Positions 4,295 to 53,245 of a stretch of DNA of 64,000 nt are shown in pieces. The stretch is taken from positions 11,421 through 75,420 of IMG/VR virus record IMGVR_UViG_3300017989_005036; one strand, 5' to 3'. Position numbers and translations under genes: made by a program. Under the pieces are notes generated by a model. That model made no database searches, was not told the DNA's origin, and saw only the letters and a list, made by a program, of their open reading frames with translations. The stretch comes from a virus. The first letter of the stretch is position 1. The number at the start of each line of letters is the position of its first letter.

Positions 4295-4438
4295 TTGAAA
4301 GAAGCCATTGATAATCACATTCGTGTTCTAAGTGATTTTCGAAGCACATTGTTTTTAGACCCAAATTTTCTTGACCAAATAATGAACGATCATCCCAAAC
4401 GACCAATTGAAAAAATTGATTGGAAACAAGGCTTTTAA
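4295..4438 (+). CDS. small protein with C-terminal IDWKQGF motif
   Basis: ORF track 4241..4438 overlaps the RNase P RNA, so the start was moved to an in-frame TTG (uncertain). Confidence 0.5.
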   Translation: MKEAIDNHIRVLSDFRSTLFLDPNFLDQIMNDHPKRPIEKIDWKQGF

Positions 4439-4502
4439 AATGGAAAACGAAGAACAATGATGTGCAAGCTAAAAATTAGACCACCAATTATGGACAAGTA
4501 AC

Positions 4503-4856
4503 ATGAAGAAAATTGAACGCCAAGGAACAGAAACTTTAACTATACAAAACTGCCCTTGTTGCAATGGAGAGATTGAAGTCAGTGAATGTGGTTATTCAAG
4601 TTTCAATCCCGGAACAGCAAAGTGTGTTGGAAAATGCAAACGTAAATGGGATCTTGGTTATGTGAATAATGAATGGGATTGTGGCGAAAGGTGGAATGAA
4701 CTTTCCCGAGAAATTAAGCGAAAACTAAAAGCTTTCAAATTACTGGAAGTCAATAATACACTCGCTTCTTCACGTGATTTTGAACGTGAAGCTTTAGCAG
4801 AAGAAGCTGAGCTACTTTTAAAAGAACTTGAAGAACAAATCATTGATGCTTCTTAA
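4503..4856 (+). CDS. hypothetical Cys-rich (zinc-binding) protein
   Basis: CPCC...C..KC motifs. Confidence 0.5.
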   Translation: MKKIERQGTETLTIQNCPCCNGEIEVSECGYSSFNPGTAKCVGKCKRKWDLGYVNNEWDCGERWNELSREIKRKLKAFKLLEVNNTLASSRDFEREALAEEAELLLKELEEQIIDAS

Positions 4857-5242
4857 CCAACTTTTTGCTTCCACATATCAGCATTCCAATGAATAGCAGG
4901 AACACTGGTTGTTCTCATTTTGTTATCAGACCCAATGATGTCTGCAACTTTTTGCCAATCTTCAAATGGCGGAAATTTAGGTTCTGGAGTTAATTCTTTC
5001 TCTCCTTGATAGAATCTCATGTTAAGTTTAGGGTTGGTACTGGGAGCATTGATCCAACCATTTTTAGTCAATAAGCTCACGCCGGTAATTGATGGTTTTT
5101 TATCTGCGTAAGCTCCCCACAATTCTATTCTCAAGTCAATTATTTTGACCTCTTGCGGACCATTACCGATATCTATCGTAACTGGTTCATCAAAATGGAT
5201 ATAACCATCTTCGTTCAATATTAGCCATTCCTTGAAGTTCAT
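4853..5242 (-). CDS. hypothetical protein with MNFKEWL N-terminus
   Basis: ORF with recurring N-terminal motif; TATATA just upstream. Confidence 0.6.
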   Translation of the reverse strand: MNFKEWLILNEDGYIHFDEPVTIDIGNGPQEVKIIDLRIELWGAYADKKPSITGVSLLTKNGWINAPSTNPKLNMRFYQGEKELTPEPKFPPFEDWQKVADIIGSDNKMRTTSVPAIHWNADMWKQKVG

Positions 5243-5656
5243 AGGAATATATACATACGATATGTCCGAATTTGCTCCTCAACTTATACCGAAGACTTGG
5301 TATGTCTACGATTTTCCGTTGACAGCCACAAAACCGCATCCTTCTACAGCCACTTATGGTGGGTCTAGAACAGATGCTTTGATCAAAAGTGCTGCAACGA
5401 TGCTCAGCATAGATCCAGAACGTGTTACGCTCCGATACGACAACAATAAACCTGATAGATCTGATCAAATTGATGTGACGTATGGTGGAAACCCTAAAGC
5501 ATGTTCCGTAAAGCCAAAACATCCTGAATTGCCGGGGACAAATCCTATGGCAAAATATAACAAAAGAGCAAAGAGATCAAAAACGCTTAAGAAATTTCAA
5601 GACAACTCTCCAGCAAACATTGAATATTTTCAACCATTTAATCCTTGTGATGCTTT

Positions 5657-5911
5657 TTAATCTTGAATCATTTGATCATCAGTCGTATTTGACACAACAT
5701 CAGCAATTATATTTGAAGACCGAACGTCGGAAGTGGGCTCTGATTTCTTTTTTTCGCTTGCCCATACCTGTGACAGCATCCAACCAATAGCAGTAAAATA
5801 AGCAGCGGTAATGATCCCAATCCACTCAAGATAGAGAAAACTATACCATCCCATTACGGCAGCCATGCCGATTATAACAAGTGTTTGAAAAAGCTTCCAC
5901 AATGTTTTCAT
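5657..5911 (-). CDS. small two-TM membrane protein
   Basis: two hydrophobic segments; GGAGG RBS. Confidence 0.6.
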   Translation of the reverse strand: MKTLWKLFQTLVIIGMAAVMGWYSFLYLEWIGIITAAYFTAIGWMLSQVWASEKKKSEPTSDVRSSNIIADVVSNTTDDQMIQD

Positions 5912-6048
5912 GATCCTCCTTGAACGGATGCGGAACCACTTATGTTAACTCCACCAGTTGCTTTTATTGAAACAACTGGTTTCTTTTTTCTTTTGAACCT
6001 ACGAGAACGACCTCGTGATCCACCTCTACTTCTGCCGCACCCACACAT
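5908..6048 (-). CDS. 46-aa basic Arg/Gly-rich protein (not in ORF track)
   Basis: MCGCGRSRGGSRGRSRRFKRKKKPVV...; stop overlaps next ATG (ATGA); CTAGATA upstream. Confidence 0.55.
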   Translation of the reverse strand: MCGCGRSRGGSRGRSRRFKRKKKPVVSIKATGGVNISGSASVQGGS

Positions 6049-6067
6049 GAAAATATCTAGGTGTTAT

Positions 6068-6346
6068 TTAGAAGCCTTCCAAAAGCCAATTTTGGTTTGA
6101 AGGTTTCACAAAACAATTGCTCATTGCCCCTAAAATTTCACGCCAATTAGGCCCAAGATTTTTCTCTATACGAGAACTCCAAAAGTCATTTCTTTCATTG
6201 AGGGTCATTTCTTGAAATTCTTCTGGTTCAGGAAAGGTACCGGAAATTGCAAAAACCTTCAAAAACTCATCTGAGACTTCTCCTTTTTGGTGACGAGCCA
6301 CAATTGAATTTGCCATTTTTGTGGTCAAAACCCCTCCTTCTTCCAT
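6068..6346 (-). CDS. small protein with C-terminal NWLLEGF motif
   Basis: ORF track; true start probably ~6316. Confidence 0.6.
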   Translation of the reverse strand: MEEGGVLTTKMANSIVARHQKGEVSDEFLKVFAISGTFPEPEEFQEMTLNERNDFWSSRIEKNLGPNWREILGAMSNCFVKPSNQNWLLEGF

Positions 6347-6459
6347 GCTACATTTACAGGTTTTAATTCTAACGGAGTTCCTTCAATACAAGGAACAGAA
6401 CCTTGTTCAATAAAAACATCCAAGATATCATTTATCCGTCTTAATTCTTCTTCATGCAT
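6325..6459 (-). CDS. 44-aa protein with C-terminal VAWKKEGF motif (not in ORF track)
   Basis: Hand translation MHEEELRRINDILDVFIEQGSVPCIEGTPLELKPVNVAWKKEGF*; TATATA upstream. Confidence 0.65.
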   Translation of the reverse strand: MHEEELRRINDILDVFIEQGSVPCIEGTPLELKPVNVAWKKEGF

Positions 6460-6475
6460 TTCCAATATATAGGGA

Positions 6476-6673
6476 TCAAAACCCATCCTTCTGCCAATTT
6501 ACTTTATTAACAGAGAAAGGCAGATGGGGGATTTGTACGACAATTCCAGAAACTTCTGGATTATCTGATGTTCGCCAACCATATCTCAAAGATAGTGGCG
6601 TTGTTTCTTCCCGCCGACGATCAACAATGTCTTGACGGGTCAATTGGAGCGGATTTTGTCGATGATTAAACAC
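6476..6673 (-). CDS. small protein with C-terminal VNWQKDGF motif
   Basis: ORF track. Confidence 0.6.
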   Translation of the reverse strand: MFNHRQNPLQLTRQDIVDRRREETTPLSLRYGWRTSDNPEVSGIVVQIPHLPFSVNKVNWQKDGF

Positions 6674-6686
6674 ATGTTATGTAGAC

Positions 6687-7304
6687 TTAATGAGCCAATG
6701 TGTTTTTGATCAACTTTTCTGCATTGAAGAGACGACCACGCTGAAAATCAGGTCGTACAATTTTGTACCGATTTGTAATCCATTTGCCATTACAAACCTT
6801 TACATAGATGCCTTCACGAAGGCCAGTGCCGCCAAATGAAGCAGGTTTTTCTATTAAATCAATATATCCTGAAAAATCTTTATTTAAAGGTATTTCAGAG
6901 AGCTTAGGAGACGTACTAAAGCCAGATTCCTGAAGAGCCCTTCGAGCCATTCTTGGTGAATAAAAATCATTATTTGAATGAAGAAATAAATCAAAAGCAA
7001 TTAACCACGATGGAAGCTCTGTGTATTCCATTCCATGTTGCATGACCATCCATTCGCCATAAACGCTACATGGTCCTACAAGCTCTTCCAGAGCCTCAAA
7101 TTGGCTTTTATGATCGTAGACCCAGTTCCAGATACTGGCAAATTGTCGTTGTGAAGAAGCCTGAGAAGGATTTCGGCCTTTTCGGAGGATTTTATCTTTG
7201 ATCCGAATTTTAGGATGCCCTTCGTGGAAGCACATTCCTACCATAGCACCATCAATTTTTTCCTCCACATTCACATACCCAATTGGATCACAAAGACGTT
7301 TTAT
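6687..7304 (-). pseudogene. ATP-dependent RNA ligase family, 3' part (interrupted by IS)
   Basis: nucleotidyltransferase motifs EEKIDG, YGEW, AFD, REGIYVK, YKIVRPDF. Confidence 0.8.
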
Positions 7305-7458
7305 CCCTAAAGCGGCGTGAAAACCCCTACCAATTCTAAAAAAGAATTGGCTGGTCATAAGCGAAGCGACCGAAGGGAGCAAGCATGACCAGCCCTTTAG
7401 GGTAGGGGATGAAACGCCGTGAGCTAGAAATGGTCTAAAAATGGGTTTCACCTAACCG

Positions 7459-7731: not shown

Positions 7732-7740
7732 ACTCCTTAT

Positions 7741-8148
7741 TTAGCCTTGTTCTTCAATGTATTGTCTAATCGTATCGGTCGAGGCATCGCCTGTCGTGCA
7801 GACAAAGTATCCATCACTCCAAAACGTCTTCTCATTCCAGAAGTGCCGAGACAAGAATGTATCAAATTTCTTCCAGATATGGAATGTTGATTGCGACTTC
7901 AACCGATTGACTATATCGAACGCAGACAAGGTTGGCGGTGCATCTACCAGAACGTGGATGTGATCTTTGTCCGTTTCGAGAACATCAATCGTAAAACCCG
8001 ACTTCTCAGCGATCTCATAGAACAATCTCTTGATCTCATCATCAATTACCTTCGTCCAGAGCAATTTCTTACGATACTTCACACAAAAGACGAAATGATA
8101 TTTCATCAAGTATTTGCTGTGCGAGCCGTGATGATATTTTTTCTCCAT
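7741..8148 (-). CDS. tnpA: IS200/IS605 Y1 HUH transposase
   Basis: YHFVFCVKYR, DHIH (HUH), LKSQS, FWSDGYF, YIEEQ. Confidence 0.95.
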   Translation of the reverse strand: MEKKYHHGSHSKYLMKYHFVFCVKYRKKLLWTKVIDDEIKRLFYEIAEKSGFTIDVLETDKDHIHVLVDAPPTLSAFDIVNRLKSQSTFHIWKKFDTFLSRHFWNEKTFWSDGYFVCTTGDASTDTIRQYIEEQG

Positions 8149-8228
8149 TTTGTCCTCAGAAATTTTGAGCCAACATACTACATAATTATGCCCAAGAAGA
8201 ATTATAGCATAATTGGTGGTAAAAAGGA

Positions 8229-18047: not shown

Positions 18048-19475
18048 ATGGCAAACGTAATACGAGTACAAAATGTTTACAGTTGGCTTCTCTCTACAGA
18101 TCGTGATCTGAAATCGAAGCTACACAAGTCTCTGAGGTTTAGGGACAAAAACTACTACCACAACGCTGCCTACAAAAAAGGCAAGTGGGATGGGTTCACA
18201 GAGTTTTTCACTGAAAACAACGGGAAGTTTCTCACTGGTCTTCTTCCAGAAGTGGAAGCTGCCCTTAAAAAACAACACAAGCAATATCAAATTGTCGATG
18301 AACGCAATAACAACATACAGTGGGAACACTCATCAATAAATGAACATTTCTTGGACCCATGGATTCCAGATGGGCATCCAGCCATCACGCTTCATGATTA
18401 CCAGCCGGATTTGGTAAATCGAGCTATTGCAAACAACCGAGGACTTGTTCAGGCTCCTACGGCTGCTGGCAAAACATTCATTATGATCTCACTTTTGAAG
18501 TGTCTTCCACCAAAGACTCCTGTTTTGTTTTTGACCAAAAACAAAGCATTGGTCCATCAGAACTACGAAGACATGATTGCTTGGGGAGTTCCAAATATTG
18601 GGCGATGGTACGGCAACTACAAATCACCCAATTTCATCACTTGTGCAAATTCAAACGTTCACACATTGAAAGGTCTCGATAATTTACTGCCGAAAATCAA
18701 AGTCTTAATTGTCGATGAAATTCATGAATGCATGTCCAAAGTTCCAATTGGAGCATACAAAAAAATGAAAAAAGCGTGCATTCGATTTGGAATTTCCGCT
18801 ACTCCATTCAAAGACAAACGTGTTCATAAATTCACAGTCAAAGGACACTTTGGCCCTGTCTTCAAAACATCAACGACCAAAAGTGGATTTTTGACCACTA
18901 AAGAACTGCAAAAAAGAGGAATTCTTTCTGCCAGCAACTGTACGTTTTACAGAATCGAAGAGCCATCGATCCCTTACGAGCCATACATCGATGCTGTCAC
19001 TTTGGGGATCGCCGAAAACTACTCCTTTCACAACATTGTTCGAAGATTAGCCCGTTCGCTAAAAGGTCGATCATTGATACTGGTGGAAAGAAGAGATCAG
19101 GGTGAATACCTCAAACAACTCATGCCTGAAGCTCATTGGGTAAATGGTGACGACAGTCTTGATGTTCGCAAACCTGTCATTGAAGCTTTGAAAAGCGACG
19201 AAAATGTAACAGCAATTGTTATGCGTCAAATCATCACAGCGGGCATCAATGTAAAAGTCCACAACCTAATTAACGCTGCTGGTGGTGACGCCAGTTACAA
19301 CGTCATACAACAAATAGGTCGTGGACTCAGGTGTGCTGAAGATAAAGACATCTTGCAGTACTATGATTTCATTTTTGAAATCAATGAGTATCTTTACAAA
19401 CACTCGAAGAATCGAATGAAAACATTAGAAGAAGAAGGTCACACAGTAAAGGTTAAACCTGAACTGGACTTTTGA
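18048..19475 (+). CDS. SF2 helicase, UvsW-like
   Basis: DYQ, APTAAGKT, DEIH, SATP, QQIGRGLR. Confidence 0.85.
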   Translation: MANVIRVQNVYSWLLSTDRDLKSKLHKSLRFRDKNYYHNAAYKKGKWDGFTEFFTENNGKFLTGLLPEVEAALKKQHKQYQIVDERNNNIQWEHSSINEHFLDPWIPDGHPAITLHDYQPDLVNRAIANNRGLVQAPTAAGKTFIMISLLKCLPPKTPVLFLTKNKALVHQNYEDMIAWGVPNIGRWYGNYKSPNFITCANSNVHTLKGLDNLLPKIKVLIVDEIHECMSKVPIGAYKKMKKACIRFGISATPFKDKRVHKFTVKGHFGPVFKTSTTKSGFLTTKELQKRGILSASNCTFYRIEEPSIPYEPYIDAVTLGIAENYSFHNIVRRLARSLKGRSLILVERRDQGEYLKQLMPEAHWVNGDDSLDVRKPVIEALKSDENVTAIVMRQIITAGINVKVHNLINAAGGDASYNVIQQIGRGLRCAEDKDILQYYDFIFEINEYLYKHSKNRMKTLEEEGHTVKVKPELDF

Positions 19476-19693
19476 GCATTTCTTCAATGGGTGTGGCTTT
19501 TGGTTTTGGAAGTTCGCCAAAATCATCATCGAAAATGTCATTGTCCAAAATTGGCTTGGGAGTGTCTTTGGTCACACCACAATCACAGTCAATTTCGCCA
19601 CATTCAAAACATGTGCCCGAGAAAATATCTTTCCCGGTTTCATATCTCCATGTGTACAAAATGACTCTTTGCTCACTGATTCTTTCCGATAGC

Positions 19694-21406
19694 TTAACCA
19701 ACGTTCTTCCTTTCCAACTCAGCAATTCTTCTTCTCCATTCAGATCGGAGTCGAAAAATATCATCTCTGCTTTTTGGTTCATCAAAAAGTAAAGATTGCC
19801 GAGTGCAGTTAATCTTTGCCTGAAGTGTTTGATACTCCCTAGTTTCTCCTATGTCAGGGGGTATCAGGTCATTCACTACTTCCATGACTTCATCTATCGT
19901 TGTGCAATTTGCAGATTTAATTTGACTTCTAAGAGAAGCAAATGCTGCTGCTGAATAACCTTCTGTTATCTCAATCAGCATTTCGAAAACCTGATTGTCA
20001 ATGTCATCTCTGTTTTCATCAAGAGGAGCATCAATGTTGTTTAGCATGTCTCCAAAAACCCATGTGATGAATTCATGAACATCATCACCTTCTGGGTCAA
20101 GCACAGGGATAATCAAATCCCCAACTCTGCCCGGACGACGAATGTCTGGAGACAAATTGTTGATTCGTGCTGTCATTAAAAGCCAAACAACTCGACCTCT
20201 CAATTGAGGATCGCTCATCATGGCTTGAATTTTTCCAGTTAAACGACGTTCTGTATCATGGGTTCCTTCTGAAACGCCTCCAAATTGAGTGTCTGCCTCA
20301 TCAACAAATATGACCACTTTGTCGAGCGCAGAAATTGCTCTTTGCAATCGTTCTAAAATAACATCTGTTTGTCCAAACCACATAGATCGCAGGTTTTTGA
20401 GAACTAAAACTGGAACTCCCAATTCAGATGCTACTGCTTCGAAAATAAATGTTTTCCCGCCGCCAATTGGACCGCCAATTGCGGCTCCCGGTAAAGAACC
20501 ATCATCATCACGTGTGATGCGTGGCATCATTTCTTTTCTGAGGAAGCTCTTTAATCGCCTAAACCCCACAACGTCATCAAGATTGTGTGTAGGCTTTTTG
20601 AATTCTACAGCATCGCCTAACTGAGATGTGATGTATTCTTCAACTTTACTGATCACATCTGATTGCGTTATTTCTCCACGACATAAAAGCTGCCTCAAAG
20701 CATGAATGGACAAACTGGCTGTATTTTTAATGAAGTCCGGTGGCAGTTTGGCTTCTGGACCCCAATTTACAAAGTGTTTTCTTTGTTCAAAGTTCGGAGA
20801 AGGAACATCTACAGCAAGAACCTGTGGCAATCTGGAAACATGAGAATGAATCGCACTTTGCGATTCTGAAATCAGAATGACCGAATCTCCTCCATGAATA
20901 AAATCTGGTTCTGAAAACCAGTCATGGATGATTCCTACACGTCTTCTATCTGCAAGAGACATTCTGGAAAATTGATCTTCTGGAAGAAGCATGTCTGCTG
21001 CTTCGACAATCACCAATAGATCGTTTGTGCTTTCTCCTTTCTTAAATGCTTGTCGAGAACAGTAGGTTAATTGACGCAAAAACTCCAAAGCCCCCGTTGG
21101 GTTACCAACGGCATTCATGCAAATCTCTTCAAACTTCTTCTCTGTTCTTGGTCCATATTTCTTCCAAGCAGCTTCAAGTTCTGTTCTGTCTCCTATTGTT
21201 TTGACAGGATTGTTAACTTCGTAAATAATCTGAGTGATTCCATTACGCTTATCGTTTGGCTCCACTTTGTACGAAGAAGACAAAAAGTCAATCAGAGGAA
21301 CATAACCGCTTCCATCAAAGAAAAGATCATACACATTACCCGTCAATATCACGGATCGTGCCTGATTTGTATTGATGATTCTTGAAAGTTTGGGAATAAA
21401 AGTCAT
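19694..21406 (-). CDS. classical AAA+ ATPase with degenerate N-terminal AAA module
   Basis: GPIGGGKT, WFGQT pore loop, VIFVDEAD, RRPGR second region of homology. Confidence 0.85.
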   Translation of the reverse strand: MTFIPKLSRIINTNQARSVILTGNVYDLFFDGSGYVPLIDFLSSSYKVEPNDKRNGITQIIYEVNNPVKTIGDRTELEAAWKKYGPRTEKKFEEICMNAVGNPTGALEFLRQLTYCSRQAFKKGESTNDLLVIVEAADMLLPEDQFSRMSLADRRRVGIIHDWFSEPDFIHGGDSVILISESQSAIHSHVSRLPQVLAVDVPSPNFEQRKHFVNWGPEAKLPPDFIKNTASLSIHALRQLLCRGEITQSDVISKVEEYITSQLGDAVEFKKPTHNLDDVVGFRRLKSFLRKEMMPRITRDDDGSLPGAAIGGPIGGGKTFIFEAVASELGVPVLVLKNLRSMWFGQTDVILERLQRAISALDKVVIFVDEADTQFGGVSEGTHDTERRLTGKIQAMMSDPQLRGRVVWLLMTARINNLSPDIRRPGRVGDLIIPVLDPEGDDVHEFITWVFGDMLNNIDAPLDENRDDIDNQVFEMLIEITEGYSAAAFASLRSQIKSANCTTIDEVMEVVNDLIPPDIGETREYQTLQAKINCTRQSLLFDEPKSRDDIFRLRSEWRRRIAELERKNVG

Positions 21407-21564
21407 CGTTTTAACCATTCCACAGGCACAGATGTGCAACTCTTAAAGTTGCGTTTTTGACAAATGCAACATTCTAAGGCATTCGGCCAATAATTGATGT
21501 CCCTTGGAGTAATAGCAAGAACCGATTTACATTTTTCACAAGTCAGAGTTGTTTTCGAGCACTC

Positions 21565-29604: not shown

Positions 29605-30414
29605 ATGGTAAATAAAGAAATGAATGATCTGAATTTCAAAACATGGTTTGAAGCAACTGACATTTTTGGTTTTGATCCCGAAATACGGGATGAAGCTATA
29701 AGTGACAATATGCTTGCACGTCCAATTTCACAGTTTAACATTGAGCTGATGATGGAGTTTCTCAACAACAAACGAGTTGGACTTCATACAGCTAATTGTC
29801 CTTTTGTGAATGAAATTCAATGGGGGACTGAACCGGGTTCAGCAATCAAACTGGAAGTTGATACAGGATACAGTTTTCATCTTAAGAAATTAGTCGTGGA
29901 TCTCCAAGGTCAAAAAAGATGGATCACGAAAAAACTGTTTCAGTTAAATCGACACGGCTATGGTGGACATGAAGACTCTGTCGCAAGTGAAGTTCATGAG
30001 CACATTCAAAAAGCAATGGAGTCTCCTATGGAATCTCCTGTCGAAGAATATGGAGATGGAGAGCTGCAAAAATTAGTGGTTCATTTGGCTGGTAGAATTC
30101 GCAGGGTTGCCAAAGAAGTATTCTTGTACCAAGGCGTGAAAAAAGTAGATGAAAACAATTACCTGATTATGTTTGAGTGCCGTGGTGGTGGAGTTGAAGC
30201 TCCAGATCAAAGAAGGGTAGAGAAAAACTTAACTCAAGTCACTTACGACAAAGAAGGCGGCACAATACGAATTCAAAACTACAATGTTGAAAGCCCGGTA
30301 GGGGGGCCTCATGAATGGGCTATTTCGCCGCAAGACATTGATTTGTATTTTCTCCCAACACAGCCAAGAGATGAAATTGCAGAAGTTGTTGGTGTTCATT
30401 TCAAGTATTATTGA
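29605..30414 (+). CDS. hypothetical protein (NFKTWFE N-terminus)
   Basis: 269 aa ORF. Confidence 0.6.
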   Translation: MVNKEMNDLNFKTWFEATDIFGFDPEIRDEAISDNMLARPISQFNIELMMEFLNNKRVGLHTANCPFVNEIQWGTEPGSAIKLEVDTGYSFHLKKLVVDLQGQKRWITKKLFQLNRHGYGGHEDSVASEVHEHIQKAMESPMESPVEEYGDGELQKLVVHLAGRIRRVAKEVFLYQGVKKVDENNYLIMFECRGGGVEAPDQRRVEKNLTQVTYDKEGGTIRIQNYNVESPVGGPHEWAISPQDIDLYFLPTQPRDEIAEVVGVHFKYY

Positions 30415-30601: not shown

Positions 30602-31087
30602 TTAGAAGCCTTCTATTGCCCATTCTATTTTTCCTTCTAAATCCATTTCATATGGATTATCCCTTAACTCGATAGCCAAAAAGATATCATCTGGATGATT
30701 CCAGTGTCCAGCAGGATGACCTGTGTCAATGCAATCTTCACAAGTAATGTATAATCTTCTTTCGCCTCGATATTCTCTTCGAAAACTATAGTTTCGACAA
30801 ACAGGACATTCTATGTTCGGAATAGGGTTTTCTGAATGGTAATTGTTGATTCCCCAACGCCATAGATTGGGAGTAGTACAATAATCACGAAAAACAGGTG
30901 GCATCCATTCATTTATACGTTTTTGTTCGATTCTAAAATTCACCCATCCACCGTTTAATGTCATTTGATGATATTGAATTGAACTGTTTAAAGGAGAACA
31001 CAATAAGTTCATTAACCCTTCAACAGTTTGGGCCATGCGTTCAGGTGTAGTTTGAAAAACTTCTTCTCCAACAGGATAAACAACCAT
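30602..31087 (-). CDS. hypothetical zinc-ribbon protein ending IEWAIEGF
   Basis: CPVC...CEDC; C-terminal motif. Confidence 0.6.
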   Translation of the reverse strand: MVVYPVGEEVFQTTPERMAQTVEGLMNLLCSPLNSSIQYHQMTLNGGWVNFRIEQKRINEWMPPVFRDYCTTPNLWRWGINNYHSENPIPNIECPVCRNYSFRREYRGERRLYITCEDCIDTGHPAGHWNHPDDIFLAIELRDNPYEMDLEGKIEWAIEGF

Positions 31088-31443
31088 CAGAACCCCTCAG
31101 TGGCCCAATCAACTATTTTCAAAGCTCGTGCCCATAATGGTTTTCTCGTAAAAAACACACATTCAGAGTCATCAAAGCATACAACTTTGAAATGCACCTC
31201 TGTTGGCAACCAATCATTATATTCAACACGCCTGACAACATTTTCGGCAGAATAGAAAAGCCATTCCAGCCCATCTTCTAAAAGACATCGCTTTCCTTCG
31301 TCTTCTCCTGCTCTAAGAAGAACTTCTCTATTTATAACCAAAGGAGTCAATTGAAAACCTGTTTTCCAGCTTTGTTTGTTGTTGAAGGTTATTCCAGAGA
31401 TCCAAAAAACATCGAAATATTTGATATTCTTTGCCATCTTCAT
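31087..31443 (-). CDS. hypothetical protein ending VDWATEGF
   Basis: ORF; start uncertain (overlaps upstream ORF). Confidence 0.5.
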   Translation of the reverse strand: MKMAKNIKYFDVFWISGITFNNKQSWKTGFQLTPLVINREVLLRAGEDEGKRCLLEDGLEWLFYSAENVVRRVEYNDWLPTEVHFKVVCFDDSECVFFTRKPLWARALKIVDWATEGF

Positions 31444-38190: not shown

Positions 38191-38772
38191 ATGATCGACC
38201 CGGTTAGGTTCACTAATTACAATTTGGATGATCAAGGTTTACAGGAATACATACTTTTCGCCATTTCGGCAGCAGGAAAAAACGCAACAACGGCAGCCAG
38301 AATCTTAGATGAATTTTTAAATCATGCCAAAGAGACAACAGGTGGAAAAGATCATTTTGATTGCGTGCTAAAAATTGCCAAAGATAAATCATTGCCATCT
38401 GTTTTAAAAAGCTTTGGGTTTGGTTGTTTTAATTTGAAGGGCCAAGGATTTCTTGAGATTGCCCAAAGTGGGTTGGATTTAAAAAGTTGTTCTGTTGTTG
38501 ATCTTGAAAAGATCAAAGGCATTGGAATGAAAACCAGCAGGTTTTTTGTGATGCATACACGACGCAACGCAGGTGTAGCTTGTCTTGATGTTCATATTCT
38601 TCGTTGGATGAAGAAACGAGGCTTTAAGAACATTCCCCAGCAGACACCAACAGGTAAGCGTTATTTGGAAATCGAGAAGAAGTTTTTGGATGTAGCGAAA
38701 CGTCTCAATAAAGAAGTTGCAACTTTAGATTTGGCAATTTGGAATGATGAACGAGGAAGTTTTGATTCTTAA
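38191..38772 (+). CDS. HhH-GPD DNA glycosylase-like (OGG/endonuclease III fold)
   Basis: IKGIGMKTSRFF, ACLDVHILRWM, YLEIEK, LDLAIW. Confidence 0.8.
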   Translation: MIDPVRFTNYNLDDQGLQEYILFAISAAGKNATTAARILDEFLNHAKETTGGKDHFDCVLKIAKDKSLPSVLKSFGFGCFNLKGQGFLEIAQSGLDLKSCSVVDLEKIKGIGMKTSRFFVMHTRRNAGVACLDVHILRWMKKRGFKNIPQQTPTGKRYLEIEKKFLDVAKRLNKEVATLDLAIWNDERGSFDS

Positions 38773-41513
38773 TCTTCGTCGTCAATGATGTGATAATCAC
38801 TCCTAGGTCTTGTGTGACCTACATACCAAGCATTATCTTCCTGATCTAAGTCAGCCGGAAGTTTTGCTTTTGGATGAGGGTATAAACTTGGGGTGATTTC
38901 AAAGACTCTGTCAAACTCTAATCCTTTAGATTTGTGAGCAGTTGTTAGAATAACTGGATTAAGTTTTCTGAGTTTTTCTTTGTATTCCATTTTTTCTTTC
39001 TTGCTCTTGAATTTTTCTTTCATTCCACCAAGTCTTTGTCTTAGCCAATCTTTAAGTTCTTTGACTGTGATATCGTGTTTGTCTTTGTTTTCGATATCTC
39101 CGATCATATCGATGGCTGATGAAATAGCTTTGTGACCTTCGATCATGTCTTTAAGGTCGCCTTGTTTTTTGACTTGATTACCCCATTTATTTCTTTTCTC
39201 ATCAACAAAATCATTCATGATGTCTTGGAAATCTGCAATGTTGATGTCTTCCCAAACACCTTTTTGCCAGTTCAATACACGATTTATCAAATTGATGACT
39301 TCGTTAGACAAATCCCATCCCATGATTTCAAATGGGATGCCTGCTTTCATAAGTTCCATTGCAGTTTTTGCTAATGGTTCGTTGGTACGTGCCAGAACAG
39401 CAGTTTGTTTTTGAAGTTCTCCTAAGTGTTCCATTTCATTTCCCAATAAATCCATCATGCCAGAAACATCCATTTCACGATTTGTATAGATTTCTGGGTC
39501 AAATGGATCATCTTCTAAACCAGCTTCGATGTCGTTTACAACAGTTCCTTGGTTTGCTCTGTTGATCAATCCCGGTTTTGATCTGAAGTTTTTGGTAAGT
39601 TGTTTAGAGACAGCATTAGGATTTTCTGAATTCGATTTAAGCATATCAGCAATGTCTTGAAACGAAGTTTCTGATGCTCCACGAAATCGATATAAAGATT
39701 GTCTTGGATCGCCTACGGCAACAATTTTAGCACCTGACTCCAAGAGCTTTTCGAGAATCTTTTTCTGAGCAATATTGAAATCCTGAACTTCATCAGCCAA
39801 TACGAAATCGTATTTCTTTGGTTTTGTCCAATCAATTTCATCAGCGTGCATAGCAGCAAACCATAGGTCATCGTCAAAGTCACGCATGCCACGTAAGTTT
39901 TGGGGAATTGGTTGATCTAATCTGGTTGGCATTCCACCATTTCTGGACTTTTCATGTGTCTGGTGAAACTCCTGATCGATGCCATGTGGTATGGATTTTT
40001 GCATGATCCATGAAGCGACTTGAATCATTTCTTCAACAAAATCATGTCCTAGAAAATCATCTATTCCCATAACCTGAGACAGATTATCATTATGGAAATC
40101 TTTGTTAGGGTCTTTTTCTAATTGTTCTTTTGTTTGCTCTAAGGAGCTGTTGATTTCATATTCGCCAATAACTTTTCTTAAATCTTCTTCGTATGTGTTA
40201 CTGGAGGGATTTAAGTTAAATGATTTTAAAAGACCTACTATTTTTTCAACTTCTTTGTTGAATTCTCTCCATATTTTCTTGACCCATTTCTTGGCATATT
40301 TTTCATCTTGAGAGCCTCCCATGTCATCAACATGAAGTATGTTGGCTCCTTTTGTTACAGCACGGTATTGTGGGCCATCCATGATCATTCCCAGTTTGTT
40401 TCCTTTTTTAAGGTTGGGAATGTAATCATAAATCCTTTCTGTAGGATTAATGTTATTTGCATCTAAGACTTTGCCAGCATAGCTGTGCGTGGTCATAATG
40501 TCAGACTTCATGAATTCCGGGAAAGATTCACGTGCTTCTTCTCCATTTTTTGTTCCAAAGACGAGGTAGATCCAATTTTGTCTTTTTCCTCCGAATTCCT
40601 GAGCTAAGTGTTTCAACATTGTTGTTTTGCCGGTTCCAGCTCTAGCCCCAATCATCATGTGAGAATCTTCGCCATTGTGGATTCTTTCAAACTGATCATG
40701 GATTTCTTGTTGCTGAGCGGTTAATTCAAAATTCTTGGACTCTTCTTTGGGGTGATAAAGGTCAATTCCTTCACTTGGTTTTTTGGCTCTTTGTAAAGAG
40801 CCATCAGCTTCTTCACGAGTAAAGATTCTTCCAACTTCTGATGTTGGAACTTCTCCAAAATTATGTATTTTTCCTTTGTAATATGATGCAAAGATCCAAC
40901 TGTTATTGGTTGGATGTTTTTTCAACATCGCCAATTGATCTTTTCTCAGTTTTAATTCTTCATTGTCTACTTGAGATTTTGCCAATATCCAAGGTTGTTC
41001 TTGTTGTTGTGGCTGTTGTTGGCTAATCCCTTGTTGTGGTCGCTGTTGCTGTGGAATTTGAGGTTTATCTGGCTGTCCAACCATTGAGTCAGGAATGATG
41101 TCCTTGGTTTCAGGATGCCACCAGCCTGATTGTCCTGCATATGGTCCGAATTGAATATTGCCTAATCTTCTGTAGCCTTTTTGAGAAGGATCTTCTGATA
41201 ACAAAAAGTACGAAGTGTCATTTTTCATCCATTCACGAAAAGACAATGTTTTTTGAACCATTTTTTTAGGTTCAACTGGTCCTGTGACTGGTTTACTCAT
41301 TTTTACTTTTCTTCTTTTTTCGGCATGATCTTTGATGTCATTCAATACTTTTCCGGGTCTCCACTGAGACATACGTTGCCATCTTTCGAAGTTTACAGGA
41401 TCAACTTCAAATCGGTAGTTTTTACCTTTTATGTTTACGCCGACAGTTCCATTGCCAAAACCATCATTTGACCAAAGAGTAAATACAATGTTATTATTAG
41501 CTTCAACCCACAT
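38769..41513 (-). CDS. UvrD/SF1 helicase with long N-terminal extension
   Basis: ARAGTGKTT, DEVQD, VGDPRQSLYRFRGA, NFRS, ARTN, TAHKSKGLEF, YVGHTR. Confidence 0.9.
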   Translation of the reverse strand: MWVEANNNIVFTLWSNDGFGNGTVGVNIKGKNYRFEVDPVNFERWQRMSQWRPGKVLNDIKDHAEKRRKVKMSKPVTGPVEPKKMVQKTLSFREWMKNDTSYFLLSEDPSQKGYRRLGNIQFGPYAGQSGWWHPETKDIIPDSMVGQPDKPQIPQQQRPQQGISQQQPQQQEQPWILAKSQVDNEELKLRKDQLAMLKKHPTNNSWIFASYYKGKIHNFGEVPTSEVGRIFTREEADGSLQRAKKPSEGIDLYHPKEESKNFELTAQQQEIHDQFERIHNGEDSHMMIGARAGTGKTTMLKHLAQEFGGKRQNWIYLVFGTKNGEEARESFPEFMKSDIMTTHSYAGKVLDANNINPTERIYDYIPNLKKGNKLGMIMDGPQYRAVTKGANILHVDDMGGSQDEKYAKKWVKKIWREFNKEVEKIVGLLKSFNLNPSSNTYEEDLRKVIGEYEINSSLEQTKEQLEKDPNKDFHNDNLSQVMGIDDFLGHDFVEEMIQVASWIMQKSIPHGIDQEFHQTHEKSRNGGMPTRLDQPIPQNLRGMRDFDDDLWFAAMHADEIDWTKPKKYDFVLADEVQDFNIAQKKILEKLLESGAKIVAVGDPRQSLYRFRGASETSFQDIADMLKSNSENPNAVSKQLTKNFRSKPGLINRANQGTVVNDIEAGLEDDPFDPEIYTNREMDVSGMMDLLGNEMEHLGELQKQTAVLARTNEPLAKTAMELMKAGIPFEIMGWDLSNEVINLINRVLNWQKGVWEDINIADFQDIMNDFVDEKRNKWGNQVKKQGDLKDMIEGHKAISSAIDMIGDIENKDKHDITVKELKDWLRQRLGGMKEKFKSKKEKMEYKEKLRKLNPVILTTAHKSKGLEFDRVFEITPSLYPHPKAKLPADLDQEDNAWYVGHTRPRSDYHIIDDED

Positions 41514-41575
41514 GTTCTTATATATTAGCTGGGGGAGCAAAAGTGATTGATACTTAATTAGACTACCTAAATAGG

Positions 41576-49115: not shown

Positions 49116-51005
49116 GAAAATGGATATTTGGTAGAATAGAATTCATAGAAGCCCGTGGATGAAAGTCTGTGGGCTTTTGTTTTTAAATCACTAAATAAGT
49201 GTGATGAAAATGAACAACAATGTTTTAAGACAACATGTCAGAGAAATGAAAAGTATGGCAAGTATTTTAATGCCACATACATTTCCTTTAGTTGATTTTG
49301 AGGAAGAGCACGATACTCTCTTTTTGAAACAGCGTACAATTACTGTAGATGGTTATGAATTAGAAGTAATTCTTAGCAAAGCTGACTACAAAAAACATCA
49401 TATGATTACGCTGAATATTAAGTCTGCTCAATCTCCATTTCTTCCATTTAATCTTGTCTGTAAAGTAGCCCAAGCGTTTCTTGGAAAACGCCATCTGGCA
49501 TATGCGGAATTTTTGAAAGACAACAAAAAAATCTATTGTTGGACGTTAAAAACCACTTCTCAAGGAAGGGTTGTTCCAACAAGTAAAGACTTAGAAACAA
49601 GCAGTTACGAGGGTTTTGAATACAATGTCTTAAATCAAAAAAGTGTTGGGTAATGTCTTGCTTATTCATTGTAAATACGTTTGGTTATCTTTCACAAAAG
49701 GGGAAGCGAACAATGAACGACGTAAAGCTCAGAAAGCTTCAATATTTGCTTATCAACCATCTGCTGGACCACGGTACAGTAGAGCTTCTATTGCCAGACG
49801 GAATGACCGTTGAAATTGGCATTGTGCAAGAAACAGATGGAGGAAATGTAAAATCTGACGATTATTGCTATGTGGTGGCATCAAAAGACTGCAAAGCCGC
49901 TCTTATCGACTCTTATAATTTGGGGTTGAAATTTGAGAAAGAAGATGACACTATTCTCTACGAAGATGAAATCTTAGATGATGACGGAAGAGTCATCAGT
50001 CGATTTGATGTAGTCTAAGATTTAGGCAGAAAAAACGTTCCAAAGCTCTCCTCAAGGGAAAGTTCACCATTTAATGTCATAGAAAAAGTGTGTGTTCCTA
50101 TGACCACACCTTCTTCTTTTGGCACTGTGAATTCTGCCCAAACAGAGAATTTGTTGCCTTCGGGACGAAATCTGGTAATCATTATCTTGGTGTTTCTTGG
50201 AGCGATTTCCTCTTGTGTGATACAGGGGAATTCGTTAGAACGTGCGTGTTCAAGGACAATTCTCATTAATTGGGTTGTATCTAATACACTGGCCCAATTG
50301 GCTAAGAGAAGTTCTTCAAATTTTTCGTTAATCAGTATTCTTTTCATAGGATGCACTAATGAGTAAGACTGTTATAAAAGAGTTTCTTAATCGAAGCTCT
50401 GATGATGAAATTCGATTTTTGGGCATGAGATTGGTAGAACGTCTGCAAGACGACCTTGCCGAGGTATTCAACTACGTCAGCAAAGGCAATAGTCGAAATA
50501 TAGGTTTGGACGATCTTTTTAAGTCCACCACAACAGCAAACGAACTGTATCAATACTGTGATGATCTTCAGCAGGAGATTGAAAAAGAGGCGAGCAAAAG
50601 AAATGTCTCTTTGAGTCGTGGCAAGCCTTCCTGATCCTACTATTACATGTTGTGGGCAATAACGCCCGGAACAGAGAGGATCACATGAATGCACAGGAAG
50701 TGTGCGATAAGTACACAAACGGACTTTTCGGCCAAAAATATTTGGGCGGAATCACAGAATTTGTTACTGAGTTCGAAAATAAGGTCATAGAACCTATTCA
50801 AGCACCGAACTACAAGGACAAAAATGCGGAAACCTACAAAGATAAAGTAGAGAATTTCCGCAACTTTGTTCTGGATGCTGTTAATCTTTCTTGGATTCGC
50901 AATAATGGCCCTTTGGAATGGGATTCTGTTCCTGAAGTCAAAGAGGCTATCGAAAAATACTTAGAAAAATAACAGATAAGGTGCTTCTGTTGTTAGGAGA
51001 GTTTA

Positions 51006-53042
51006 ATGCCAGAAGTCATTAAAGTAAGTGACACTGAAGACCTTGTGCCTACAAAAAAGTACAAGTATGCCACTTGGCCTTTTGAAAATTTCAATCCAGT
51101 TCAAAGTACTGTTTTTCAGCACTTCAAAGGAAATAGCAATATTGCTATTGCGGCTGCCACTTCAGCCGGGAAAACCGTTTGTTCTGAAATTTACATGGCT
51201 TATGAAGTTCGGAAGCGAAAAGGTAAGGCAATCTATGTTGGCCCTCTTAAAGCATTAGCAAAAGAGAAAGAAGAAGATTGGAAAAGTGATGAACATCATT
51301 TCAACGATCTGAATGTTTCTATTTGCACAGGTGATTACAAGTTAACACAAAAGCGAGTCCAAGAATTGGACGACGCTGATGTGATTGTGATGACGCCTGA
51401 AATGCTGGCAAGCCGTTGTCGAAACCATGAATCTGAGAAAAGTCATTTTCTTCAGAATGTGGGAACAATTGTCTTTGATGAAAGCCATCTGTTAACTGTT
51501 CCCAATCGTGGAGATCACATTGAAGTCGCTTTGATGCAGATGGTTGACATTAACCCAAATGTCAGAATTGTTTTGCTTTCAGCGACGATGCCCAATGTAG
51601 ATGAAATTTGCGGTTGGCTATGTGAGTTGACAGGACGAGATACATATTATCTTGAGTCTGATTACAGGCCATGTCCTTTGAATATCCATTACCAAATTTA
51701 CTATGATGCTGAAAATTCCTATGATAAAGTTGAAGCTCAAAAAGTAGGAACCGCATTGGGGATCATTGAATATTATCCTGATGATAAGTTCTTGGTTTTT
51801 GTACACACCAAACGAACCGGCAAAATGATGCTGGAACATTTGAAGCGGCATAAAATTGAAGCTGAGTTTCATAATGCTAATCTGGGTTTGGCAGATCGCA
51901 TGAAACTCGAAAACAAGTTCAAGAATGACCCAAATTTCAAAGTGATTGTTTCCACATCAACTTTGGCATGGGGTCTTAACTTACCAGCAAGACGTGTAAT
52001 TGTCACAGGCGTCCACAGAGGACTTACAGAGGTTGAAAACTACGATATTCGACAAATGGTAGGACGAGCAGGAAGACCTGCTTACGACCCTCGTGGGGAT
52101 GCTTATGTTTTGATTCCTGAGAGGACAGCAAAAGAAACTTTACAGAAGCTGAAAAGAGAGCCAAAGATTGAATCACAACTTCTGAGTTTTGTGGGCACTG
52201 TAGATAAACCTCATTACAAAGTTTTGGCTTTCCATTTGGTCGCTGAAATTTATCAAGGAAACATTACCACAAAGAAAGGTCTTCAGGAATGGTTCAGTAA
52301 TAGTTTGGCTCACTATCAGGACCATGATTTTGATGATGGTTTAATTGATACAGTGATGGATCAATTGACAAAATGCTACGCTGTTAAAGTTGAGAATGGG
52401 GAATATTCTGCTACAAACATTGGCAAAGTAGCTTCCATTTTTTACTTCAGTCCTTTTGATGTATCTGATCTTAGAAGGAATTTCAAACGACTGTTTGAAG
52501 AGGGAACAGAAGGAGATGACCACTCTGTTGCAATGGCTCTTGCTAACATCGACACATGGCGATGGGGAATTACCAGTCGTGATGAAAGAAATCAAATGGG
52601 TGTATTTGCAGCTATGATTAAACGAAGGTTTGGAGAATATGCATTCACTGACTCTGTGATTAAAACAGGGTATGCATACCATAATATGTTGCATGGAAAA
52701 TACAACGTGCCTGCATTTGCGGGTCTTCAGGGGACACTGCGTGTTGATTGTGACAGAACGATTCAGGTTTTGAAGGCTTTGGATAGTTTTAGTGGTCGTT
52801 GGGGCAAACAGGATTATCTTAAGTTGTTGCAGAAACGATTGAATTATGGTGTTTCGAATAACTTGCTGGATTTGTGTTCAATTCCAAATATTGGAAAGGC
52901 ACGAGCTGAACGTTTGTATCGAGCTGGCATTAAAAACAAGAGTGATTTTGTGACAGCCGATATTGGCAAATTGGCAACTACAATGAAAGTGAGTGTGGCA
53001 AAAGCCAAACAATATCTCAAAGAAGCTCAGGGGGATGGTTGA
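51006..53042 (+). CDS. Ski2/Hel308-like SF2 helicase
   Basis: FNPVQ, TSAGKT, PLKALA, MTPE, DESH, LSAT.PN, STSTLAWGLNLPA, QMVGRAGRP, C-term HhH IPNIGKARAERLYRAG. Confidence 0.9.
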   Translation: MPEVIKVSDTEDLVPTKKYKYATWPFENFNPVQSTVFQHFKGNSNIAIAAATSAGKTVCSEIYMAYEVRKRKGKAIYVGPLKALAKEKEEDWKSDEHHFNDLNVSICTGDYKLTQKRVQELDDADVIVMTPEMLASRCRNHESEKSHFLQNVGTIVFDESHLLTVPNRGDHIEVALMQMVDINPNVRIVLLSATMPNVDEICGWLCELTGRDTYYLESDYRPCPLNIHYQIYYDAENSYDKVEAQKVGTALGIIEYYPDDKFLVFVHTKRTGKMMLEHLKRHKIEAEFHNANLGLADRMKLENKFKNDPNFKVIVSTSTLAWGLNLPARRVIVTGVHRGLTEVENYDIRQMVGRAGRPAYDPRGDAYVLIPERTAKETLQKLKREPKIESQLLSFVGTVDKPHYKVLAFHLVAEIYQGNITTKKGLQEWFSNSLAHYQDHDFDDGLIDTVMDQLTKCYAVKVENGEYSATNIGKVASIFYFSPFDVSDLRRNFKRLFEEGTEGDDHSVAMALANIDTWRWGITSRDERNQMGVFAAMIKRRFGEYAFTDSVIKTGYAYHNMLHGKYNVPAFAGLQGTLRVDCDRTIQVLKALDSFSGRWGKQDYLKLLQKRLNYGVSNNLLDLCSIPNIGKARAERLYRAGIKNKSDFVTADIGKLATTMKVSVAKAKQYLKEAQGDG

Positions 53043-53245
53043 CATTTGAAGTCAGGCATGTAGACACAGGTCATGGTATAGCTCGATTTAATACGGCTCA
53101 GGAAGCAATAAACTTTATGGGTCGTTATGACAGAGATGGACAGGTGCCGCTTGAGATTTTCAATGTATATGAAAATCGACCATTAGTGTTTATGGTTGGA
53201 GAGCACAAAAACCCCAAGAGAATAAATTGGAAAGAGGGTTTTTAA
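53039..53245 (+). CDS. small protein ending INWKEGF
   Basis: ORF coupled to helicase stop. Confidence 0.6.
   Translation: MTFEVRHVDTGHGIARFNTAQEAINFMGRYDRDGQVPLEIFNVYENRPLVFMVGEHKNPKRINWKEGF

What the first reader, a model, noticed from the sequence alone, without database searches (positions are those of the whole stretch)
4295..53245. Shared C-terminal tag W-x(1-2)-[EDQ]-G-F-stop on at least seven unrelated small proteins
Seen: KIDWKQGF* (ends 4438), NQNWLLEGF* (6068), VNVAWKKEGF* (6325, missed by the ORF track), KVNWQKDGF* (6476), KIEWAIEGF* (30602), KIVDWATEGF* (31087), RINWKEGF* (53245). Three are consecutive (6673-6068) and two adjacent (31443-30602). The proteins show no other visible similarity, and the codons and stop codons differ, so conservation is at protein level rather than a DNA repeat. 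Inference: an undescribed C-terminal docking or sorting signal recognised by one partner (phage or host protease/adaptor, clamp or RNA polymerase surface, packaging or export machinery). It would be analogous to T4 C-terminal clamp-binding peptides or the SSB tail, and would define a family of interchangeable small effectors.
Basis: partly seen in the sequence, partly recalled or inferred. Interest (0 to 1): 0.85.

Follow-up and report, generated by a model that had tools for sequence, protein, structure and literature searches.

The report
Shared C-terminal tag on huge-phage proteins
Seven otherwise unrelated small proteins of this giant uncultured phage, and hundreds more in related phages, end in the same eight-residue tail (V/I-N/D-W-x-K-E-G-F), which selection keeps at the very end of the protein; it looks like an address label read by a partner that is still unknown, and I found no description of it.

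Summary
All seven ORFs end in W-x(1-2)-[EDQ]-G-F-stop; simulated sequence of the same composition gives 0.02 such ORFs per window. The window is part of a 75-kb fragment of a huge T4-related phage. The tag recurs in many viral and metagenomic contigs: 238 distinct tagged ORFs, arrays of 3-5 tagged genes, and one run of 27. It marks 3-8% of predicted genes in six contigs. It is a protein-level signal: third codon positions are free and all three stops are used. It is strictly terminal (42 of 57 core matches are followed by a stop; 3.6% expected). It sits on a predicted disordered tail behind a linker that varies by insertions and deletions. In the family of window ORF 2, all 73 homologues that reach the C-terminus end in W-x-x-x-G-[FLY].

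Two related huge phages lack the tag and the tagged families I searched for. Two Planctomycetes chromosomes carry one tagged gene each. Tagged proteins are enriched for excerpts of the phage's own capsid protein.

The best reading is a docking handle for one common, unidentified reader. Clamp, PDZ and AAA+ candidates found no support. Other agents of this scan noted the same tag and capsid-excerpt mini-genes on other DNA. No paper I searched describes it.

The parts
4241..4438 (+). Tagged ORF 1, 65 aa, ends IDWKQGF-TAA (short-spacer variant). Next start is 65 nt downstream.
   Evidence: coding score z 3.5. Its 5' end overlaps the RNA gene noted by another agent at 4045-4278.
6068..6346 (-). 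Tagged ORF 2, 92 aa (probable start at 6316, 82 aa), ends NWLLEGF-TAA. It is a short form of a roughly 179-aa family.
   Evidence: 79 homologous clusters; all 73 that reach the C-terminus end in W-x-x-x-G-[FLY].
6325..6486 (-). Tagged ORF 3, 53 aa, ends VAWKKEGF-TGA. Its start lies inside the tag codons of ORF 4.
   Evidence: coding score z 4.6.
6476..6673 (-). Tagged ORF 4, 65 aa, GTG start, ends VNWQKDGF-TGA. First of three consecutive tagged genes downstream of an RNA ligase gene (6687-7451).
   Evidence: coding score z 2.2.
30602..31087 (-). Tagged ORF 5, 161 aa with CxxC...CxxC cysteine pairs, ends IEWAIEGF-TAA. The next long ORF (29605-30414) is on the other strand, so I found no coupled downstream gene.
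   Evidence: Only itself in the 5.8-billion protein set.
31087..31443 (-). Tagged ORF 6, 118 aa, ends VDWATEGF-TGA, with the stop overlapping the ATG of ORF 5 (TGATG).
31354..31371 (-). Internal tag-like SWKTGF at residues 25-30 of ORF 6; possibly the relic of an upstream tagged mini-gene fused by loss of its stop.
   Evidence: read from the sequence; inference only.
53039..53245 (+). Tagged ORF 7, 68 aa, TTG start overlapping the stop of the DEAD-box helicase gene, ends INWKEGF-TAA (short-spacer variant).
   Evidence: A homologue in contig G003 (1219-1497) also carries the tag.

Best explanation
The tail [V/I]-[N/D]-W-x-[K/x]-[E/D]-G-F-COOH is a short linear docking peptide, a 'handle'. It is carried on a flexible C-terminal tail by many unrelated small, soluble, mostly acidic accessory proteins of one clade of huge T4-related phages.

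Shown:
- It is encoded in each gene, kept by selection on the protein, and always the last residues.
- It is separated from the folded body by a poorly conserved linker that varies by insertions and deletions.
- It is present in some genomes and wholly absent from two related ones, which also lack the tagged families I searched for.

Inferred:
- One common reader recognises the Trp at -6, the Glu at -3 and the terminal Phe with its free carboxylate. All tagged proteins are thereby brought to the same place or machine.
- The variable bodies bind different targets. Some are capsid-protein excerpts, and one array holds at least 27 fast-diverging paralogues.
It may be phage-encoded (positions -5/-4 differ between genomes) or a host protein, possibly of Planctomycetes.
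For: - Excess over chance: 7 observed against 0.02 expected; 4-11 pattern hits per related contig, 0 for the reversed control.
- Terminal position: (42 of 57 core matches followed by a stop, against a 3.6% stop frequency; strict motif 57 terminal, 1 internal).
- Protein-level selection: (all four Gly codons, both Phe codons, all three stops; 30 of 79 tags have no ATG within 15 nt downstream).
- Conservation in homologues: six aligned members, 34-57% identical to the reference; the tag W, E, G, F are invariant and the linker has indels; 64 of 79 clusters end in the strict tag, 9 in near variants, 6 are N-terminal fragments.
- Flexible tail: (body pLDDT 77-88, last 11 residues below 50).
- Genome-specific flavour: (identity at -5/-4 is 0.75 within genomes and 0.37 between; 0 of 2000 permutations reached this).
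- All-or-none distribution.
- Constant tail on diverging bodies: (the only invariant columns are W, E, G, F).
Against: - No reader was found. A PDZ family (PF13180) and the T4 clamp family gave nothing in eight records.
- The Cdc48-like AAA+ ATPase also occurs in tag-less genomes.
- Comparing tag-bearing contigs with two tag-less genomes gave no family common to all. The tag-bearing contigs are only 10-67% complete.
- No binding was tested.
- The within-genome similarity of the tags could come from gene conversion rather than co-evolution with a reader.
- Later checks of comparable 'one reader' claims elsewhere in this scan put them at 10-33%.
Confidence: 0.5

Rival explanations
1. The tag is a degron or processing signal. 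It marks a set of proteins for timed removal or cleavage by one protease or unfoldase, rather than recruiting them to work somewhere. This still needs a reader, but the outcome is destruction or maturation.
For: Strictly C-terminal and exposed on a disordered tail, as C-terminal degrons are. Several relatives encode a Cdc48/VAT-like AAA+ ATPase.
Against: The AAA+ gene is also present in the tag-less 436-kb genome G008 and in G009. The tag does not resemble known bacterial C-terminal degrons such as the LAA end of ssrA (my knowledge). A 27-gene diversifying array fits target-binding adaptors better than a set of substrates.
Confidence: 0.15
2. The tag is a nascent-peptide signal that acts inside the ribosome at the stop codon. 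It would slow termination so that the ribosome restarts on the overlapping start of the next gene in tightly packed arrays.
For: The peptide always abuts a stop. 26 of 79 tags have a TRATG stop-start overlap and 23 more have an ATG within 15 nt. GGA is over-used for the Gly codon (about 42% against 21% genome-wide), which gives a purine-rich, Shine-Dalgarno-like AAGGA/GGAGG.
Against: 30 of 79 tags have no ATG within 15 nt. Window ORF 5 is followed by a gene on the other strand, and ORF 1 is 65 nt from the next start. Codon bias is the same in coupled and uncoupled tags. Positions -8 and -7 and the genome-specific positions -5 and -4 are not explained.
Confidence: 0.12
3. The tail works on its own, without a dedicated reader. 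It could be a weak interfacial membrane anchor or a self-association strand (Trp, Phe, Lys) that gathers the tagged proteins together.
For: The aromatic-plus-basic composition recalls short amphipathic C-terminal membrane anchors (my knowledge). A profile of the tail resembles the strand-C motif of I-set immunoglobulin domains, although the best E-value is only 0.25.
Against: Eight residues containing a Gly and a conserved Glu are short for a membrane anchor. An invariant free C-terminus and Gly-Phe point to pocket recognition. The genome-specific flavour is not expected for lipid binding.
Confidence: 0.08
4. The tag is a by-product of DNA or RNA constraints (a ribosome-binding site for the next gene), or a relic of one ancestral 3' gene end spread by recombination, with no function of its own.
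For: SD-like purine bias and frequent stop-start overlap. Some arrays are paralogous.
Against: Third positions vary freely while W, G and F are invariant in the family and the array, and across the 73 homologues. All four Gly codons, both Phe codons and all stops occur. The motif is almost never internal.
Confidence: 0.04

Closest known systems
Tethering tails of AAA+ protease adaptors (E. coli SspB: substrate-binding domain, disordered linker, C-terminal ClpX-binding peptide)
   Same: The architecture matches: a folded variable body, a flexible linker with indels, and a short peptide at the extreme C-terminus.
   Different: The sequences are unrelated. Here dozens of different bodies share the tail. 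No unfoldase or protease could be tied to the tag; the AAA+ gene also occurs in tag-less genomes. The comparison rests on my knowledge of SspB.
T4-type clamp-binding C-terminal peptides (gp43 polymerase, gp33, gp55 on the gp45 clamp)
   Same: Several unlike phage proteins share a short hydrophobic or aromatic C-terminal peptide read by one ring protein, and these phages are T4-related (gp23-, gp32- and RecA/UvsX-like genes).
   Different: No polymerase or other replisome protein carries the tag. No gp45-type family was found. The consensus differs. Carriers include capsid excerpts and acidic proteins next to a methyltransferase.
Acidic C-terminal tails ending in Phe (T7 gp2.5 and gp4 docking on the polymerase; E. 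coli SSB ...DDDIPF)
   Same: A terminal Phe with a free carboxylate, preceded by an acidic residue, on a flexible tail.
   Different: The tag is not an acidic run; Lys dominates -4 and -5. It has an invariant Trp, and it sits on small accessory proteins rather than on DNA-handling hubs.
Encapsulin cargo-loading peptides and T4 capsid-targeting sequences
   Same: A short peptide on a flexible tail would address unrelated proteins to an HK97-fold shell. Tagged proteins are enriched for pieces of the HK97-fold capsid protein.
   Different: The consensus is different, and the T4 signal is N-terminal and cleaved. No virion data exist. The tag-less relative LR756511 also has capsid-excerpt mini-proteins, without any tag.
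Class III PDZ ligands ([D/E]-x-hydrophobic-COOH) and the OMP Y-x-F-COOH signal read by DegS
   Same: E-G-F-COOH fits the pattern, and a free C-terminus is required.
   Different: The one PDZ family I searched (PF13180) was not found in eight phage records. The proteins lack signal peptides or membrane segments, whereas DegS-type readers are periplasmic.
Other shared C-terminal tags and capsid-excerpt mini-genes noted by this scan (e1-831089, e1-4772764, e1-173140, e1-5817517, e1-5725538, e1-4035658)
   Same: Unrelated small phage proteins share one short end peptide that is uniform within a genome. Several giant T4-like phages join capsid excerpts to a shared module.
   Different: Most of those tags have different sequences. 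They are unchecked AI notes, and no reader was identified there either.

Membership tests
T4-type clamp-binding C-terminal peptides | Carried by the replicative DNA polymerase and other replisome or late-transcription proteins | tested here: not met
   PolA pieces, helicases, gp32-like SSB and RecA/UvsX-like protein of the window do not end in the tag.
T4-type clamp-binding C-terminal peptides | A gp45-type sliding clamp encoded by the phage | tested here: inconclusive
   PF09116 gave no hit above cut-off in eight records, but the tag-bearing contigs are only 10-67% complete.
SSB / T7-type acidic C-terminal tails | A run of acidic residues before a terminal hydrophobic residue | tested here: not met
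   Positions -4 and -5 are mostly Lys; only -3 is acidic. The terminal Phe is present.
AAA+ adaptor tethering tails (SspB-like) | Folded body, disordered linker, short peptide at the extreme C-terminus | tested here: met
   AF2 model: body pLDDT 77-88, last 11 residues below 50. Indels in the linker.
AAA+ adaptor tethering tails (SspB-like) | A cognate unfoldase whose presence tracks the tail | tested here: not met
   The Cdc48-like AAA+ ATPase is present in the tag-less G008 and G009. Host unfoldases were not testable.
Capsid or encapsulin cargo-targeting peptides | Tagged proteins are found inside or on the HK97-fold shell | not testable with these tools
   Only indirect: capsid-protein excerpts are enriched among tagged proteins (4 of 42 against 4 of 694, p 5e-4).
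PDZ class III C-terminal ligands | [D/E]-x-hydrophobic-COOH at the free C-terminus | tested here: met
   E/D-G-F-COOH in nearly all copies. This is a pattern match only.
PDZ class III C-terminal ligands | A PDZ-domain reader in the same system | tested here: inconclusive
   PF13180 was absent from eight phage records while the control genomes were positive. Other PDZ families were not searched, and a host PDZ protein cannot be excluded.
Immunoglobulin I-set strand-C motif (P-x-[VI]-x-W-x-K-[DE]-G) | Significant profile match and an Ig fold around it | tested here: not met
   Best E-value 0.25 against PDB sequences. The tail is predicted disordered, not part of a fold.

The most novel reading that the evidence does not exclude
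The tag is the constant handle of a phage-encoded programmable adaptor system. Fast-evolving or excerpt-bearing bodies each grip a different phage or host target: copies of capsid-protein contact segments, a run of at least 27 diversifying paralogues, and acidic proteins beside a methyltransferase. The invariant W...EGF-COOH tail plugs all of them into one machine, such as a protease or unfoldase, the assembling head, or a Planctomycetes host factor. This would be a bacterial-virus counterpart of the poxvirus ankyrin/F-box adaptor families.
Probability: 0.2. Interest if true: 0.85.

Novelty: new variant of a known kind. Interest (0 to 1): 0.62.

Why it matters
Huge phages are full of small genes of unknown function. 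A single eight-residue tail that marks 3-8% of predicted genes groups many unannotated proteins into one functional class, and it offers one experimental handle (the peptide) to fish out their common partner. The link with capsid-protein excerpts and with rapidly diversifying arrays suggests a targeting or mimicry system that has not been described. The two chromosomal copies in Planctomycetes give a first host lead for a clade that has no cultured member.

Tried and rejected
- **Close relatives:** megablast of 4 kb against 50,697 phage records found nothing. Single-protein locus searches with ORF 5 and the helicase found nothing. Word-based homologue searches for ORFs 5 and 2 found only the proteins themselves.
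- **Family libraries:** Pfam, PHROGs and NCBIfam gave nothing for the window's seven tagged proteins. Across the 76-protein set, the only recurrent hit was Pfam Gp23.
- **Literature:** searches for the tag strings and for shared C-terminal docking motifs in phages found nothing relevant.
- **Solved structures:** a profile of the tail gave only insignificant Ig-domain look-alikes.
- **Candidate readers:**
  - The AAA+ ATPase is rejected as a dedicated reader because it occurs in tag-less genomes.
  - A PDZ family and the T4 clamp family were not found.
  - The UvrD-like helicase lies within 2 kb of tagged genes in three of four contigs; I did not follow this up.
- **Presence/absence comparison:** comparing tag-bearing contigs with the two tag-less genomes gave no family shared by all tag-bearing contigs.
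- **Fold of the 27-gene array protein:** the model is confident (pLDDT 88), but no clear structural match was found (Foldseek E > 0.001; best Z 5.9).
- **Readings rejected:**
  - Shine-Dalgarno artefact.
  - +1 frameshift at TTT-TGA: more than half of the Phe codons are TTC.
  - A gene split by introns: the capsid excerpts are not collinear with the capsid protein.
  - Ribosomal bypass joining the pieces: only one internal tag in about 12,000 ORFs.
- **Metagenome records** could not be searched as a whole.
Full report
**1. The observation**

There is no further copy in the extra 11 kb of the same record. Third-order Markov simulations of the window give 0.02 such ORFs on average and never more than one.

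With the tag removed, the seven proteins show no similarity to one another (best E 0.19). They match no Pfam or PHROGs family. Their stops and synonymous codons differ. Their codon usage is that of real genes, z 2.2-4.6 above non-coding ORFs. They have no membrane segments, and six of the seven have a pI below 7.

**2. What the window is**

The window is 64 kb of a 75,420-bp IMG/VR virus record that CheckV rates 15% complete. It encodes:
- a split family-A DNA polymerase, several helicases and a RecA/UvsX-like recombinase;
- a gp32-like SSB;
- an RNA ligase and an IS200-like transposase;
- a Cdc48/VAT-like AAA+ ATPase.

Relatives carry a T4 gp23-type capsid protein. No cultured phage is close. 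The nearest public genome is the 595-kb uncultured phage LR756511.1. Its capsid protein is 76% identical to that of contig G001, and 28 of the 67 long ORFs of this record match it at a median identity of 39%.

**3. The tag is widespread**

- **Viral contigs.** Two degenerate DNA patterns for the tag retrieved 29 and 52 viral loci. Most are true ORF ends with the consensus [V/I]-[N/D]-W-x-K-E-G-F, and three to five consecutive small genes are often all tagged.
- **Whole contigs.** Five contigs of 51-239 kb carry 4-11 pattern hits each, against none for the reversed control.
- **Gene fraction.** In the six contigs including this one, 3-8% of predicted genes carry the tag, or 4-12% of those up to 220 aa. 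That is one tag per 9-22 kb.
- **Metagenomes.** A narrow pattern found 87 loci and 178 more distinct tagged ORFs. One stretch of 12.7 kb consists of 27 head-to-tail tagged genes.
- **Total.** I saw 238 distinct tagged ORFs in DNA loci.

**4. It is a protein-level, strictly C-terminal signal on a flexible tail**

- **Codons.** All four Gly codons, both Phe codons, both Glu codons and all three stops are used, while W, G and F do not vary.
- **Position.** In six-frame translations of 685 kb, the core motif is followed directly by a stop in 42 of 57 cases, against a stop frequency of 3.6%. The stricter motif is terminal 57 times and internal once.
- **Linker.** The residues before the tag are rich in E, K, P, T and S.
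- **Family of window ORF 2.**
  - It occurs in seven contigs, all tagged.
  - In the six aligned members, the linker before the tag is poorly conserved and varies by insertions and deletions, while the tag W, E, G and F are invariant.
  - An AlphaFold model gives a helical body (pLDDT 77-88) and a last 11 residues below 50.
  - A profile search of 1.84 billion proteins found 79 homologous clusters. Sixty-four end in the strict tag, nine end in W-x-x-x-G-[FL] variants, and six are N-terminal fragments.

The motif is therefore constrained to the C-terminus in homologues.

**5. The ribosome-binding-site rival**

K-E-G codons can spell AAGGAGG, and 26 of 79 tags have a stop that overlaps the next ATG. 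However:
- 30 of 79 have no ATG within 15 nt;
- the GGA bias is the same in coupled and uncoupled tags;
- window ORF 5 is followed by a gene on the other strand, and ORF 1 is 65 nt from the next start.

An RNA-level constraint may ride along with the tag, but it cannot explain the conserved Trp, the V/I-N/D positions or the Phe.

**6. Distribution between genomes**

Positions -5 and -4 are more alike within a genome than between genomes (0.75 against 0.37; none of 2000 permutations reached this). G001 uses V/I-K, G005 uses K/Q-K/R, and G003 uses an acidic residue at -4.

Two related huge genomes have no tag at all: LR756511.1 (595 kb) and G008 (436 kb, 85% complete). They also have no orthologues of the tagged families I searched for. 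The tagged set therefore behaves as an accessory system that is present or absent as a whole.

**7. Bacterial genomes**

A specific pattern scanned over 596 Gb of bacterial and archaeal genomes gave only two hits. Both are in Planctomycetes: a Planctomycetales MAG and Rhodopirellula sallentina. By my rough estimate, about two hits is what chance alone would give, but several things point to real copies:
- Each is the true end of a roughly 200-aa ORF just upstream of a D12-class adenine methyltransferase. The Rhodopirellula protein is visibly very acidic.
- The two tagged proteins are unrelated apart from the tail.
- The Rhodopirellula methyltransferase is 36% identical to one in LR756511.1, and a neighbouring gene matches a gene of G002.

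This is a lead that the clade infects Planctomycetes. It is not proof.

**8. The capsid link**

Seven of the 76 tagged proteins scanned match Pfam Gp23. In G001, three consecutive tagged genes carry excerpts of the phage's own capsid protein:
- residues 52-111, 58% identical;
- residues 256-311;
- residues 460-485 followed by 407-454.

Each excerpt lies about ten residues before the tag. Other contigs show further excerpts. In the six contigs taken without selection, 4 of 42 tagged small genes carry an excerpt, against 4 of 694 untagged ones (Fisher p 5e-4).

Excerpt mini-proteins are not tied to the tag absolutely. Tag-less LR756511.1 has five of them, with unrelated ends. The window itself has an untagged one at 63462-63677. 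Other agents of this scan noted such capsid-excerpt mini-genes, some with this kind of end tag, on other DNA. Those notes are unchecked leads.

**9.

- No replisome protein carries the tag, which argues against a clamp-binding peptide.
- The T4 clamp family and one PDZ family (PF13180) were not found.
- The AAA+ ATPase was absent from LR756511.1 and from all public phage records. It is, however, present in tag-less G008 and G009, so it is not a dedicated reader.
- Comparing gene families between tag-bearing and tag-less genomes gave no clear candidate. The tag-bearing contigs are too incomplete.
- The 27-gene array protein folds confidently (pLDDT 88) but matches no solved structure clearly. 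In that array the only invariant columns are W, E, G and F.

**10. Reading**

The anatomy is a variable body, a floppy linker and an invariant peptide that needs a free C-terminus. This is the anatomy of tethering tails such as the ClpX-binding tail of SspB, the clamp-binding ends of T4 proteins, or encapsulin cargo peptides (my knowledge).

I therefore read the tag as a handle for one common reader, with confidence 0.5. Which machine reads it is open. The capsid excerpts point weakly to head assembly, or to mimicry of unassembled capsid protein. The diversifying array points to adaptors with different targets.

The rivals are a degron, a nascent-peptide termination signal, and a reader-independent anchor. 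None is excluded.

**11. Novelty**

No paper in the library holds the tag strings or describes such a tail. No family library or solved structure contains it. The principle of a shared C-terminal docking peptide is known. This peptide, its breadth and its association with capsid excerpts appear to be undescribed.

Noticed in passing
window 63462-63677 (+): An untagged 71-aa ORF whose residues 16-47 copy the conserved N-arm motif of the T4-type capsid protein (...DVAGFQRIAIPLVRR...). A similar protein lies at G002 230236-230655. It belongs to the capsid-excerpt mini-gene class.
   Followed up: partly
L087 18936-19881 (= G001 18936-19881): Three consecutive tagged mini-genes carry excerpts of the phage's own capsid protein (residues 52-111, 256-311, and 460-485 followed by 407-454). 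The order is N, middle, C, but the last is permuted. This is not a split gene.
   Followed up: yes
L175 1-12339 (metagenome contig MDTG01031237.1, GC 34%): 27 head-to-tail genes of about 150-170 aa all end in the tag. They are extremely diverged paralogues whose only invariant residues are W, E, G and F. The fold is predicted confidently but has no clear structural match. The array runs to the start of the locus and may continue upstream.
   Followed up: partly
L107 3513-4133 (-) and L108 2088-2681 (+): Two Planctomycetes chromosomes (a Planctomycetales MAG and Rhodopirellula sallentina) each hold one tagged protein of about 200 aa just upstream of a Dam-like methyltransferase. This is a possible host lead and a possible anti-restriction module.
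   Followed up: partly
LR756511.1 (L111-L122) and G008 (L134-L155): Two related huge phage genomes (595 kb and 436 kb) have no tag at all and no orthologues of the tagged families I searched for. LR756511.1 nevertheless has five untagged capsid-excerpt mini-proteins.
   Followed up: yes
window 19694-21439 (-): A 581-aa protein with a single Cdc48/VAT/p97-like AAA domain behind an unknown N-terminal region of about 300 aa. It is absent from all 50,697 public phage records but present in several IMG/VR relatives.
   Followed up: partly
window 38769-41540 (-): A UvrD-like helicase with an extra N-terminal region of about 270 aa. In G001 and G005 that region is a separate small gene. In G001, G002 and G005 tagged genes lie within 2 kb of this helicase.
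   Followed up: no
window 7741-8148 (-) and 61168-61905 (-): An IS200-like Y1 transposase and a TnsA-like endonuclease with zinc fingers: mobile-element genes inside the phage genome.
   Followed up: no
L009 3988-4215 (+), 6689-7168 (-): In the sugar-gene contigs (aldehyde dehydrogenase and UDP-glucose dehydrogenase), a 75-aa ORF ends inside the capsid N-arm motif, and an HNH endonuclease gene sits directly upstream of the tagged capsid-excerpt gene.
   Followed up: no
window 31354-31371 (-): An internal tag-like SWKTGF at residues 25-30 of tagged ORF 6; possibly an older tagged mini-gene fused by loss of its stop.
   Followed up: no
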